Source: Eledone cirrhosa (Eukaryota). Taken from it: a DNA stretch of 64,000 bases. A model generated the notes under the pieces. The model was not told the origin of the DNA. It saw nothing but the letters and a program-made list of their open reading frames with translations, and did no database searches. The position numbers and the translations under genes were made by a program. Shown here in pieces: positions 1,979 through 9,632 of this stretch (positions are counted from its first letter, which is position 1; the number at the start of each line of letters is the position of its first letter). Where the stretch lies: the NCBI GenBank assembly GCA_964016885.1, contig OZ024747.1:42718001-42782000 (forward strand), read 5' to 3'.

Positions 1979-2182
1979 GTATTAGTTATACTATTTATGG
2001 TTATGCAAATACAAAACCTTAAGCAGTTGTAAGTATTTTACACACACCCTAAATAGTGGTAGGCAGTAATGTATTACTACCTTATTACCAGTAAGTTAAG
2101 TAGCTCAATGTAAAAACATCAGATGATTTACAGAGCAGTTATATGAAATATAAGAATCAAAGAACTGCTCAAAACATTATTG

Positions 2183-2229
2183 TGCTTACAGCTGTTTCCT
2201 CCAAACCGAGGTTTGGATTCTTCGGAGCA
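2183..2229 (-). ncRNA. Minimal type I hammerhead ribozyme motif (variant core CCGAAGA)
   Basis: Minus strand: TGCT-CCGAAGA-a-TCCAAAC-ctcg-GTTTGGA-g-GAAA-CAGCTG-TA-AGCA. Stem I is TGCT/AGCA, stem II has 7 bp, stem III is palindromic (A-CAGCTG-T) and the cleavage triplet is GUA. Deviations are U4C and an A.G mismatch at the base of stem II. Confidence 0.7.
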
Positions 2230-3088
2230 ATTTATTAATGCATGGACAGTTATATGACCTCCTTTTCAGCCCAGAGACATACCAAATACATATTCAAACA
2301 TTGATACATATTCAAACATTGTGGGTCAACATTCATTTAAAATCCGGAGAAAATATGGTGAAGAAGTTTATGAAATGGAAATGCGGGTATACAGAATTTA
2401 TTAGGTAACAATTGTTTCTATAGTGTATGGGTTACCTATACCTCGCTATTTGAATAATATAAAAATATTATCATAAACCGAAGGTACACTGTAAGCAAAC
2501 ACACCATGTCGTCAGACCTTTGTATTGGAATGATATGAAAATATTTTATACACTAGATAAAAGATAAAGAAGGAGGTAGGAAGAGAAGGGGAAGAGGGAA
2601 GTGAGTAAGGTGGAGGGAGTCTTAGGATTTAAGACTGTCAGACTAGTAGAGATTGTAAGGAGAGAATGTTTTGGCAGCAGTTAGCTTAATGAGGTGTGTT
2701 AGGGTTGGCGGGGGAAGTAAATTCTTCTAGTGGTGTTGTTCGGACAAAATTTAGTTAAAGGGGTCAAAGTGGTACAGTGTCACAGACAAGTTATTGGGGC
2801 TATTATAGTAGCAGGTTATTTCTAAAGGGGTTCAGAAAACAGTGTTTAGTACTATTATTATAGAAAGCCATATCTTGTGTATAAACATAGTATTATGACC
2901 TATAAAAACTAACACCCTCCCATCCCCTCTGGCTTTCGGCTGACTACCACAGTAGCGATGGGTAGCAGTAATCTTTGGCAAGGCATAGGTGGGCCACTGA
3001 CAGCGAATTTCGTTGAAATCTGCGGTGCTAATGGTCAACTTCCTTCGGACATGCGCTTGCGCAGACCGGTGGAGGTGAATTGGTACTC

Positions 3089-3140
3089 ACATGGGAACGG
3101 ATGAAAAACCCAAAGGCACAAACTTCATCCGTTCCCATGT
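3089..3140. other. Perfect 17-bp hairpin upstream of a hammerhead motif
   Basis: ACATGGGAACGGATGAA (3089-3105), 18-nt loop, TTCATCCGTTCCCATGT (3124-3140). Confidence 0.9.
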
Positions 3141-3185
3141 CGATTCAATTTGGATTGCCTCGGAAACAACCTTATTATGTAACAG

Positions 3186-6300: not shown

Positions 6301-7621
6301 TATAAATATATATACATATATATACATATATAAATATATATACATATATATACATATACATATATATACATATATAAATATATATACATATATATATATA
6401 TAAATATATATACATATATATATATATACATATATATACATATACATATATATACATATATAAATATATATACATATATATATATATAAATATATATACA
6501 TATATAAATATATATACATATATATATATATAAATATATATACATATATATATATATATACATATATATATATATACATATATATACATATATATATATA
6601 TACATATATATACATATATAAATATATATACATATATATACATATATATATATTTACATATATATACATATATATATATACATATATATATATATACATA
6701 TATATACATATATAAATATATATACATATATATATATAAATATATATACATATATATATATATATACATATATAAATATATATACATATATATATAAATA
6801 TGTATACATATATATATAAATATGTATATAAATATGTATACATATATATATAAATATGTATATAAATATGTATACATATATATATATATATATATATATA
6901 AATATATATACATATATATATATATATATATATAAATATATATACATATATATATACATATATATATAAATATGTATACATATATATATATAAATATATA
7001 TACATACATATACATAAATATATATACATATATATATATAAATATATATACATACATATACATAAATATATATACATACATATACATAAATATATATACA
7101 TACATATACATAAATATATATACATACATATACATAAATATATATACATACATATACACATATATATATACATACATATACACATATATATATATATACA
7201 TATACACATATATATATATATACATATATATATATAAATATATATATATACATATATATATATATATATATATATATATACATATATACATATATAAATA
7301 TACATATATAAATATACATATACATATATATATATATATATACATATATATATATATATATACATATACATATATATATATATACATATACATATATATA
7401 TATACATATACATATATATACATATAAATATATATACATATATATATATACATATACATACATATATATACATATACATACATATAAATATATATACATA
7501 TAAATATATATACATATAAATATATATACATATATATATATACATATATACATATATATATATATATACATATATATATATACATATATACATATATACA
7601 TATATATATATATATACATAT
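3386..7621. repeat. About 4.2 kb interrupted (AT)n microsatellite
   Basis: (TA)n with CA and AA interruptions; local 22-bp periodicity at about 3630-3900. Confidence 0.97.
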
Positions 7622-8165
7622 AAAAACAAATAACGAAACAAAATTAAATTTTGTTTCGTTTGTAACTCACTTTTGTATGACTGACGTTTAAATAATTAAG
7701 TTAAAAATGTACATCCACATATGTATACTGAAATACTAGTATGCATATGAATACACACACGTGTACATATGTAGATGTACCGAGTTTTTCACTGGATACT
7801 TTACTGTGAGTGTTCAGCTATTCTGTATGTAAACACACAGACAAACCGGTTTTTAGAGTCATACTGGTTTTCGAGGAAACATTCCTTTCCTCTATTCCCC
7901 AGAAAGCCAGACAGGAATATTGGACTAGTTTCGATGTTGTTACATCTCATCAGCAATATTTACCTATCCTCCGGCCTTTCTATCGAAAACCAGTATGACT
8001 CTAAAAACTGGTTTGTCTGTGTGTTTACATACAGAATAGCTGAACACTCACAGTAAAGTGTCCAGTGAAAAACTCGGTACATCTACATATGTACACGTGT
8101 GTGTATTCATATGCATACTAGTATTTCAGTATACATATGTGGATGTACATTTTTAACTTAATTAT
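7622..8165 (-). mobile_element. Fold-back element: 183-bp inverted arms around a hammerhead-containing spacer, embedded in (AT)n (probably Penelope-like/retrozyme-derived)
   Basis: Arms 7692-7874 and 7983-8165 are reverse complements with 2 mismatches (7797/8060, 7848/8009). The spacer is 108 bp. An unpaired extension at 7622-7691 contains a 13-bp hairpin (7632-7660). Confidence 0.75.
7916..7960 (-). ncRNA. Canonical type I hammerhead ribozyme
   Basis: Minus strand: AATATTG-CTGATGA-GATGT-aaca-ACATC-GAAA-CTAG-TC-CAATATT. The core is fully conserved, with 7-bp stem I, 5-bp stem II closed by G-C, palindromic stem III A-CTAG-T and a GUC triplet (cut between 7923 and 7922). Stem I extends past a TA bulge via GGATAGG/CCTGTCT and AGAAAG/CTTTCT. 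Confidence 0.92.
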
Positions 8166-9000
8166 ATACATATATATATATACATATATATATATACATA
8201 TATATACATATATATATATATATATATACACATATTTAAATATATATACATATATATATATATACATATATATATAATATATATACATATATATATATAT
8301 AAATATATATACATATATATATATATACATATATATATATATATATATACATAAATATATATACATATATATATACATATATATATAAATATGTATACAT
8401 ATATATATAAATATGTATATGTATATATATATATAAATATATATACATATATATATACATATATATATAAATATGTATACATATATATATATATAAATAT
8501 ATATACATATATATATACATATATATATAGATATGTATACATATATGTATAAATATGCTTACATATATATATATATATATAAATATATATACATGTATAT
8601 ATACATATATATATAAATATGTATACATATATATATAAATATGTATACATATATATATACATATATATATAAATATGTATACATATATATATACATATAT
8701 ATATAAATATGTATACATATATATATAAATATATATATAAATATGTATACATATATATATACATATATATATATATATATATATACATATATATATATAT
8801 ATATATGTATACATAAATATATACATATATATATATATATATAAATATATATACATATATATAAATATATATACATATATATATACATATATATATAAAT
8901 ATGTATACATATATATATACATATATATATATATAAATATATATATACATATATATATATATAAATATATATACATATAAATATATATACATATATAAAT
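8166..9000. repeat. Interrupted (AT)n microsatellite
   Basis: (TA)n with CA, AA and TGTA interruptions. Confidence 0.97.
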
Positions 9001-9632
9001 TAATAAAATATTCGCAATCTTCAGGTTCAAAATATGTGGTGACAGTCAAGTTTGCAATTTTCAACTGTAATAAGATGGGTAAATTTCCTACCTTTTATAC
9101 ATTTTATACAGAGAAAAGTGGCTCCAGAATGCTAAGCCCTGTAAACTCTATTTCGACCAATCAGTGTGTAGTTTCACTGAATTACTAAAGCTGATTGGTT
9201 TAAGCGTCACGGCTGGTTGAGCATGTCTAAAGACCAATAATCATATCCAAAGCATCAATTGTTTTGCTATTTTTAGAAATGATGAAAATAGCATTTTCTA
9301 TTAATCATCACCATCACTTTTATTAATATTATTATTGTTGTTGTTGTTGTTAGTGGTCGTAGTCAAAGTGGTAGTAGAAGTAATACCCCTAAGCGTTATT
9401 ATTGTTCATTTAGCTTGGGTTTGAATTTCTTAATAAAATTCTTTTCTTTGATTTTTCTCTTGATTTCACTTGGGCTGTGTAATTTGTAGAATGGGAATAT
9501 TATAAATATTCCCTGACCACATGTTGCTAGATGGTTGCTTAGGGGTATCTGACGGACATTTGGGTCTCTGATTTGTTGATGGTGTACCCGTGCACGTTCC
9601 GATAGTGTATTTCCAGTTTGACCGACATATAG
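9001..9632 (-). mobile_element. 5'-truncated Penelope-like element: C-terminal GIY-YIG endonuclease fragment plus 3' non-coding region ending at (AT)n
   Basis: 9632-9399 (-) translates without stops to LYVGQTGNTLSERARVHHQQIRDPNVRQIPLSNHLATCGQGIFIIFPFYKLHSPSEIKRKIKEKNFIKKFKPKLNEQ*. It has the YVGQT motif, conserved R and H, catalytic E and terminal P-x-LN of PLE GIY-YIG domains. It is absent from the ORF track, presumably for lack of a start codon. Confidence 0.85.

What the first reader, a model, noticed from the sequence alone, without database searches (positions are those of the whole stretch)
1979..9632. Each non-microsatellite island between the (AT)n arrays carries a hammerhead motif or Penelope signature
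Seen: within about 7.5 kb there are three hammerhead motifs with unrelated stems but the same design, GAAA + palindrome + UH (CAGCTG-TA at 2183-2229 -, TATATA-TC at 3186-3259 +, CTAG-TC at 7916-7960 -). A GIY-YIG fragment lies at 9399-9632. In each case the RNA-sense 3' end runs into an (AT)n array within a few hundred bases. Inference: several distinct Penelope-like or retrozyme families target (AT)n and pile up here. The multi-kb punctuated AT arrays may be partly produced or extended by these insertions.
Basis: partly seen in the sequence, partly recalled or inferred. Interest (0 to 1): 0.72.

Follow-up and report, generated by a model that had tools for sequence, protein, structure and literature searches.

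The report
Penelope retroelement ends inside AT microsatellite
These are broken-off ends of several Penelope-type jumping genes, three carrying the small self-cutting RNA motif such elements are known to have, that landed in a long pre-existing AT repeat, so the kind of thing is already described.

Summary
The three hammerhead motifs and the GIY-YIG fragment are real and at the stated places (3 motifs; 0 of 2000 shuffles gave one; fragment E 3.7e-30 to a Penelope-protein profile). They mark four unrelated, truncated Penelope-like element (PLE) ends. Island 1 (1979-3385) holds two high-copy families joined head to head. Island 2 (7621-8165) has the published PLE layout: hammerhead, inverted partial copy, one-sided tail. 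The GIY-YIG piece belongs with linker-Zn-finger (Neptune/Nematis-type) PLEs, for which (TA)n targeting is in print. The idea that insertions made the arrays is not supported. All three arrays keep one strand polarity across elements facing both ways, and the flanks of each island match, so one older array was interrupted. No tandem retrozyme layout. Islands between the other AT arrays of the window carry no hammerhead. Genome-wide enrichment could not be tested (no genome held). The scan noted the same motif type in PLEs of two other genomes. Open point: island 1 may be one insertion copied from two families' RNAs.

The parts
801..1978 (.). Punctuated (AT)n array, left part; ACAT/TAAAT interruptions on the + strand
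   Evidence: C 60, G 3; ACAT 58, ATGT 0
1979..2888 (-). Element A: 5'-truncated, non-coding PLE-type end, 3' end facing left; 5' boundary inferred
   Evidence: Multi-copy, depth falling from 2400 towards 2886; loose ends at 2888/2889; no PLE protein match in six frames
1979..2067 (-). Optional 89-nt 3' extension of A (most copies stop at 2068)
   Evidence: 686 molecules end at 2068 beside depth 909; contigs of two other organisms run to 1979, one followed by (TA)5
2183..2229 (-). HH1: minimal type I hammerhead, U4C core variant, palindromic loop 3, predicted cut after 2187
   Evidence: contigs X4 record 11 and X7 record 19 cover the core with their only differences elsewhere
2889..3385 (+). 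Element B: 5'-truncated PLE-type end, 3' end facing right, unrelated to A
   Evidence: Depth rising towards the 3' end; one contig joins 2943 to 3168; A vs B score 23 and 18 against shuffle maxima 24 and 28
3186..3259 (+). HH2: minimal type I hammerhead with long stem II and loop TATATA, predicted cut after 3254
   Evidence: stem II variants
3368..3385 (+). Optional 18-nt 3' extension of B
   Evidence: 54 molecules end at 3367 beside depth 70
3386..7620 (.). Punctuated (AT)n array, middle part, same polarity end to end
   Evidence: C 311, G 8; ACAT 292, ATGT 6
7621..7982 (-). Element C: short PLE-type end with hammerhead; 7621-7688 is a 68-nt tail present on this side only
7916..7960 (-). HH3: textbook minimal type I hammerhead, loop CTAG, predicted cut after 7923
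7983..8165 (+). Inverted, shorter copy of C's 3' part, joined to C's 5' end
   Evidence: 186-nt arms 7689-7874 / 7983-8168, 98% complementary, 108-nt spacer; 3 mismatches
8166..8997 (.). Punctuated (AT)n array, right part, same polarity
   Evidence: C 44, G 16; ACAT 42, ATGT 14; TAAAT 23, ATTTA 1
8998..9632 (-). Element D: last 77 codons of a PLE GIY-YIG endonuclease (9399-9632) plus about 400 nt of 3' sequence; no hammerhead found

Best explanation
One long punctuated (AT)n array existed first. Pieces of at least four unrelated Penelope-like families were copied into it by target-primed reverse transcription. Shown: the motifs, the endonuclease fragment, the multi-copy nature and two alternative 3' ends of A and B, the inverted copy and one-sided tail of C, and the unbroken array polarity. 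Inferred from published PLE biology: a GIY-YIG endonuclease of an autonomous PLE nicks AT-rich DNA; the RT starts inside the element RNA at one of two sites downstream of the hammerhead (hence optional tails); synthesis stops early (5' truncation); priming on the second strand adds an inverted piece, giving units with both 3' ends facing outwards. The hammerheads are passengers of the pseudo-LTR; their palindromic loop 3 lets two copies pair into an active form. Cleavage, expression and the autonomous partners of A, B and C were not shown.
For: Motifs above chance. Loop 3 plus A15.1/U16.1 is fully self-complementary in all three, duplex -11.1, -3.2 and -4.8 kcal/mol. GIY-YIG fragment 51-69% identical to 9 proteins; 108 of 111 scorable relatives (of 159) carry the CX2-6CxxC linker. 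2 of 6 loci related to D carry the same hammerhead design 172-194 nt after the match, 0 of 500 shuffles each, stem I threshold lowered to 3 bp; one of them has (TA)8 about 120 nt further on. Island 1 drew 3,088 contigs and 6,966 reads in organism A, with depth gradients and preferred ends at 2068/1979 and 3367/3385. Of five HH2 stem II variants among the listed rows that have 57 or more RAD reads, four keep or gain a pair. Flanks of each island match in 8-mer profile (cosine 0.93 and 0.93; against reverse complement 0.04 and 0.10). Layout as in PMC8557442 Fig. 2 legend and PMC4209133; internal priming and AT preference as in PMC11167929.
Against: No coding link ties A, B or C to a PLE protein, so their family is inferred from hammerhead and layout. 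D has no hammerhead in its 400-nt 3' part, and 4 of 6 relatives showed none (three of them with under 430 nt available). HH1 has U4C and lacks G10.1-C11.1; 367 of 451 RAD reads change 2191, which spoils the loop palindrome unless a partner change sits in unlisted rows (duplex -3.4). HH2 3232 G>C (323 of 569 reads) breaks a stem II pair unless compensated; 172 of 212 variant rows were not shown. Reads ending at 2068 have mixed flanks (agreement 0.34), which is not what in-phase (TA)n would give. C and D were not tested for copy number.
Confidence: 0.82

Rival explanations
1. The insertions made or lengthened the arrays: the RT adds AT-rich repeats at each element's 3' end, as telomerase or some LINE tails do.
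For: Every 3' end abuts the array; one contig of another organism shows (TA)5 at A's 3' end; PLE RTs are related to telomerase RT (PMC8557442, abstract).
Against: B (+) and C (-) face each other across 3386-7620, yet polarity never flips: 292 ACAT vs 6 ATGT; the two ends of that array resemble each other (0.83) and not each other's reverse complement (0.0). A (-) and B (+) have same-polarity flanks (0.93).
Confidence: 0.06
2. The arrays are only a neutral sink: elements insert anywhere AT-rich and survive in gene-poor repeat DNA, with no real (AT)n targeting.
For: An RTE-type LINE piece and a Helitron-like pair also sit in the distal AT arrays; the common 2068 end of A has mixed flanks; 24.6% of the non-array sequence lies within 420 nt of an array anyway.
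Against: 4 of 4 PLE ends lie within 402 nt of an array and all point into it; none occurs in the 12 kb of 9633-21124. By hand 0.246^4 is about 0.004, post hoc and not independent. (TA)n bias is published for linker-Zn-finger PLEs (PMC8557442 passages).
Confidence: 0.3
3. A, B and C are non-LTR retrozymes, tandem circles amplified by rolling-circle copying, rather than truncated pseudo-LTRs.
For: Type I hammerhead, no ORF, high copy number. A preprint derives such retrozymes from PLE pseudo-LTRs and counts solo copies (10.64898/2026.07.22.740005, part 1 of 5).
Against: No tandem unit with a hammerhead; no joint from 3' end back to 5' end among the 12 joints listed; 5'-truncation gradients and an inverted copy fit PLE integration.
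Confidence: 0.1
4. Island 2's palindrome or the mosaic as a whole is an assembly or fold-back artefact.
For: The window has an N gap and a near-duplicate around it; no piece spans island 1; island 2 was not checked in reads.
Against: A fold-back would invert the array to the right of island 2; it does not (0.93 vs 0.10). The arms differ at 3 of 186 positions and are asymmetric.
Confidence: 0.03

Closest known systems
Minimal hammerheads (min-HHR) of metazoan Penelope-like elements (Cervera and De la Pena 2014, PMC4209133; parts 1-2 of 4 read)
   Same: Type I motif, palindromic loop 3, short stem I, long stem II with an unpaired 5' base (HH1, HH2), mostly single motifs from truncated PLEs, and pairs on opposite strands a few hundred bases apart.
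   Different: HH1 has U4C and, like HH2, lacks the G10.1-C11.1 pair the paper calls highly conserved; the opposite-strand pair here comes from two unrelated families about 960 nt apart.
Neptune/Nematis-type EN+ PLEs (as described in Craig et al. 2021, PMC8557442; passages read)
   Same: C-terminal GIY-YIG; relatives carry RT and the CX2-5CxxC linker; insertion in microsatellites; inverted 5'-truncated copy and one-sided tail.
   Different: Only 77 codons survive; clade not resolved by a tree; tails are 18, 68 and 89 nt against the usual 30-40.
Poseidon element of Anolis carolinensis, in vitro (Frangieh et al. 2024, PMC11167929; parts 1-2 of 4 read)
   Same: Predicts AT-rich targets, extension on both strands and two internal RT start sites, matching the two 3' ends of A, B and C.
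   Different: Different clade; there the ORF starts in the hammerhead, and no such ORF was found here.
Non-LTR retrozymes (10.64898/2026.07.22.740005; part 1 of 5 read)
   Same: Non-coding, type I hammerhead, PLE-derived.
   Different: Defined there by two or more tandem units with hammerheads; none here.

Membership tests
min-HHR (type I, PLE kind) | Core CUGANGA / GAAA / UH with stems I and II | tested here: met
   HH2 and HH3 intact; HH1 with U4C
min-HHR (type I, PLE kind) | Palindromic loop 3 allowing a dimer | tested here: met
   3 of 3 self-complementary
min-HHR (type I, PLE kind) | G10.1-C11.1 pair | tested here: inconclusive
   Present in HH3 only, 1 of 3; family consensus not available
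min-HHR (type I, PLE kind) | Covariation in stems across copies | tested here: inconclusive
   Unlinked variant table, 40 of 212 rows: 4 of 5 common HH2 stem II changes compatible, 1 not
min-HHR (type I, PLE kind) | Self-cleavage | not testable with these tools
   Needs in vitro transcription; no RNA run listed
EN+ Penelope-like element (element D) | C-terminal PLE-type GIY-YIG domain | tested here: met
   E 3.7e-30 to profile positions 493-569 of 570; stop codon at the homologous place
EN+ Penelope-like element (element D) | RT in the same ORF | tested here: inconclusive
   Absent from the truncated copy; present in 2 of 9 first relatives
EN+ Penelope-like element (element D) | Hammerhead in the pseudo-LTR | tested here: inconclusive
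   None found in 8998-9401; found in 2 of 6 related loci; may have decayed
Neptune/Nematis clades | CX2-5CxxC linker before the GIY-YIG domain | tested here: inconclusive
   Region missing in the window; 108 of 111 scorable relatives have it
Neptune/Nematis clades | RT phylogeny with named references | not tested
   No named reference proteins obtained (1 of the listed members named, uninformatively)
PLE-derived insertion (elements A, B, C) | Dispersed multi-copy family with 5' truncation | tested here: met
   A and B; C not tested
PLE-derived insertion (elements A, B, C) | Optional 3' tail / inverted 5' copy | tested here: met
   Two ends for A and B; inverted copy and tail for C
PLE-derived insertion (elements A, B, C) | Pseudo-LTR shared with an autonomous RT+EN element | not testable with these tools
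   No genome held
Non-LTR retrozyme | Two or more tandem units each with a hammerhead | tested here: not met
   this locus only

The most novel reading that the evidence does not exclude
Island 1 is a single integration event in which a PLE RT primed on both strands of one cut in the (AT)n array and copied two different RNAs, from unrelated non-autonomous families A and B, then joined the two cDNAs 5' to 5'. It has the geometry of island 2 (both 3' ends outwards), matching flanks (0.93) and no AT run longer than 5 nt in 2400-3030. If general, the 'inverted 5' copy' of PLEs comes from a second RNA template, one RT serves several hammerhead families, and family A spreads with a U4C core. One full-text search (Penelope + twin priming + inverted) listed 2 papers whose titles and abstract starts concern other topics; neither was read, and subscription papers are not covered. 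Not excluded: B inserting later at A's 5' end, or a deletion fusing two neighbours.
Probability: 0.25. Interest if true: 0.55.

Novelty: new member of a known kind. Interest (0 to 1): 0.3.

Why it matters
As it stands it adds three unnamed hammerhead-bearing PLE families and one endonuclease fragment to a known class, and shows a clean way to tell target from product: array polarity ignores element orientation. If the two-template reading of island 1 holds genome-wide, it bears on an open point named in PMC8557442, how PLE tandem and inverted structures form, and is testable by counting mixed-family head-to-head units.

Tried and rejected
No whole genome is held, so the proposed enrichment scan was not run. 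Rfam at gathering score: 0 matches; the miRNA rows over the arrays are composition noise. MFE folds of the motifs are weak alone (z -1.30, -2.66, -1.53), as expected for monomers. Weak tblastn/tblastx hints of GIY-YIG remnants in A (E 2.5; E 0.015) were not supported by a 159-protein profile (no island-1 frame better than E 4) or Pfam, so rejected. A 9-bp hairpin in D's 3' part was considered as a decayed hammerhead and failed a relaxed descriptor. No RNA holder listed; this says nothing on expression. Exact HH3 pattern in viral contigs: 0. Earlier-finding look-ups by place and by sequence were empty. Region 1-800: no relatives (0 of 44 candidates); atlas hits under 0.9 only. The host looks like an octopus-type mollusc to me from recall of repeat content; this was not tested. 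Two papers opened on that guess or on Neptune targeting added nothing on hammerheads (PMC13282606 and PMC12602865, passages). Arkhipova 2006 was not read, only cited through PMC8557442. No supplements were opened; the consensus files of PMC8557442 and figures of PMC4209133 may hold related families or the U4C variant.
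Full report
Setting. The first 27 kb of the window is repeat-rich animal-like DNA with long (AT)n arrays; the rest is a 23-bp satellite. No whole genome is held, so all tests are local or use public runs and related loci.

Observation. The three motifs lie exactly where stated. A strict descriptor found HH1 (2183-2229, -) and HH3 (7916-7960, -), 2 of 3. Allowing one mismatch in stem II added HH2 (3186-3259, +). That relaxed, post hoc descriptor gives 3 hits in the 2,587 bp of the finding's islands and none in any of 2000 shuffles; in all 18,512 non-array bp it gives the same 3, with 1 of 300 shuffles reaching one hit. 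Rfam scores HH3 as HH9 at 34.2 bits, E 1.4e-5, under the gathering score of 52. HH3 is canonical. HH2 has a weak base of stem II. HH1 has a U4C core and no G10.1-C11.1 pair. A passage of PMC3088659 says U4C lowers activity in vitro yet permits viroid infectivity. In all three, loop 3 with its closing A and U is self-complementary, the design PMC4209133 describes for dimer-acting PLE hammerheads.

The protein fragment. The 77-aa frame at 9399-9632 (-) has no Pfam hit alone. It is 51-69% identical to 9 proteins among 22 candidates; 7 of 9 carry GIY-YIG and 2 of 9 also RT. A profile from 159 relatives matches it at E 3.7e-30 over the last 77 positions and nothing else in the scanned non-array regions; 108 of 111 scorable relatives have the CX2-6CxxC linker. 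PMC8557442 gives this linker as the mark of Neptune and Nematis PLEs and reports the hypothesis that it drives microsatellite bias (passages). The copy is cut just before YVG. No hammerhead was found in its 400-nt 3' part, but 2 of 6 related metagenome loci carry one of the same design 172-194 nt after the match (stem I threshold lowered to 3 bp; 3 of the 4 negatives had under 430 nt available).

Island 1. Four runs were laid on 1975-3390 (4 of 17 listed). Organism A gave 3,088 contigs and 6,966 RAD reads; organisms B and D gave 38 and 5 contigs. Summed contig depth, which is not a copy number, is highest around both hammerheads and lowest at 2839-2886, and loose ends sit at 2888/2889 (6 and 1 contigs). 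I read this as two elements joined 5' to 5': A (1979-2888, -) and B (2889-3385, +). They are unrelated in sequence. Each has two 3' ends: A at 2068 (686 molecules beside depth 909) or 1979; B at 3367 (54 beside 70) or 3385. A contig of organism D matches 1979-2230 with 3 differences and continues into (TA)5. Two contigs of organisms B and D cover the HH1 core with their differences elsewhere, so U4C is a subfamily trait. Further breaks at 2144, 2229/2230 and 2337 show that A is a group of subfamilies. For HH2, 3223 T>G (426 of 451 reads) restores a pair, 3210 C>G (165 of 362) gains one, 3205 and 3213 A>G give G.U pairs, and 3232 G>C (323 of 569) breaks one unless compensated. For HH1, 2191 G>A (367 of 451) weakens the loop palindrome unless partnered. 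None of the 40 listed rows falls in a catalytic core position, but 172 rows were not shown and linkage is unknown, so covariation is inconclusive. Against strict targeting, reads ending at 2068 have mixed flanks (agreement 0.34); the tool drops human-like reads, which may include (TA)n ones.

Island 2. HH3 lies in the 108-nt spacer of a 186-nt inverted repeat, 98% complementary. Read on the - strand this is an inverted short copy, then the sense copy with the hammerhead, then a 68-nt tail on one side only. That is the layout in the Fig. 2 legend of PMC8557442, with a longer tail. PMC11167929 explains such tails by two internal RT start sites and shows nicking and extension of both strands at AT-rich sites. 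Copy number of C was not tested.

The arrays. All three carry ACAT and TAAAT on the + strand: ACAT/ATGT counts are 58/0, 292/6 and 42/14. The elements face both ways. Left and right flanks match at 0.93 for both islands, against 0.04 and 0.10 for the reverse complement, and 0.12 or less against the distal arrays. Tails made by the elements would follow element orientation and flip inside 3386-7620. They do not. The simplest reading is one array of about 6.2 kb, homogenised by slippage (inference), later interrupted. Growth after insertion is not excluded. The same test excludes a fold-back artefact for island 2.

Scope. Other AT arrays in the window flank an RTE-type LINE piece with RT and PHD domains (family label recalled) and a Helitron-like pair (label recalled; ends). 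Neither has a hammerhead. So these arrays collect several element classes, and the title holds only inside the finding's coordinates. All 4 PLE ends lie within 402 nt of an array, while 24.6% of non-array sequence lies within 420 nt; this is suggestive, post hoc and from one window.

Mechanism and rivals. Best reading (0.82): truncated PLE ends inserted by target-primed reverse transcription into an older (AT)n array, hammerheads riding in the pseudo-LTR. Whether targeting is specific or the array is a sink is open (sink 0.3; it is compatible with the PLE identity). Arrays made by insertion 0.06; tandem retrozymes 0.1; artefact 0.03. Cleavage, expression and autonomous partners are not shown; no RNA run was listed.

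Novelty. The kind is known: minimal hammerheads in PLE repeats, inverted copies, tails and (TA)n bias are in print, and two earlier notes of this scan report such motifs in other genomes (unchecked notes, not support). These are new family members. The boldest reading left open is that island 1 is one event using two families' RNAs; probability about 0.25. Papers were seen as parts or passages as stated; no supplements were read.

Noticed in passing
window 10685-12268 (-) and 22085-23669 (+): Two 5'-truncated copies (92% identical) of a LINE with RT and PHD-finger domains and a (GAT)n 3' tail; RTE-type by recall. The second sits between AT arrays.
   Followed up: partly
window 21547-21573 and 22085-22109: The first 25 or so bases of the LINE copy recur inverted about 510 nt upstream, with an AT array between the two; looks like a 5' inversion later split by array growth.
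   Followed up: no
window 24575-25613 and 26060-26798: Two near-identical copies (97%) of an element with a 37-bp internal tandem repeat, starting TC and ending in a hairpin plus CTAG inside AT arrays; Helitron-like by recalled signature. The second copy runs into an N gap and may be an assembly duplicate.
   Followed up: partly
window 1-800 (-): Low-complexity frames with poly-Q and two Cys-spaced motifs; atlas hits lean to CCCH zinc fingers but all score under 0.9 and no relatives were found. Abuts the array; no hammerhead.
   Followed up: partly
window 9636-10440: Very AT-rich stretch directly 5' of the GIY-YIG fragment with two diverged copies of a unit of about 220 nt, 540-575 nt apart; no protein match.
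   Followed up: partly
window 2338-2390: A 53-nt segment of element A appears absent from many other copies, whose sequence resumes with letters matching 2391 (556 reads and contigs of three organisms with loose ends at 2337).
   Followed up: no
window 2229-2230: A major break among family A reads falls exactly at the outer edge of HH1 stem I (405 and 387 reads with loose ends), as if subfamilies swap or diverge at the ribozyme boundary.
   Followed up: no
window 21327-26074 vs 801-8997: The distal AT arrays use a different interruption (ATAATA) from the proximal ones (ACAT/TAAAT), each with its own fixed polarity.
   Followed up: partly
window 26999-64000: A 23-bp satellite of about 1,612 copies, 95% matches, fills the rest of the window.
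   Followed up: no
L002:1590-1626 and L005:3204-3240: Minimal hammerheads with loop CCGG downstream of PLE GIY-YIG ORFs, each preceded by a similar inverted-repeat motif seen by eye.
   Followed up: partly
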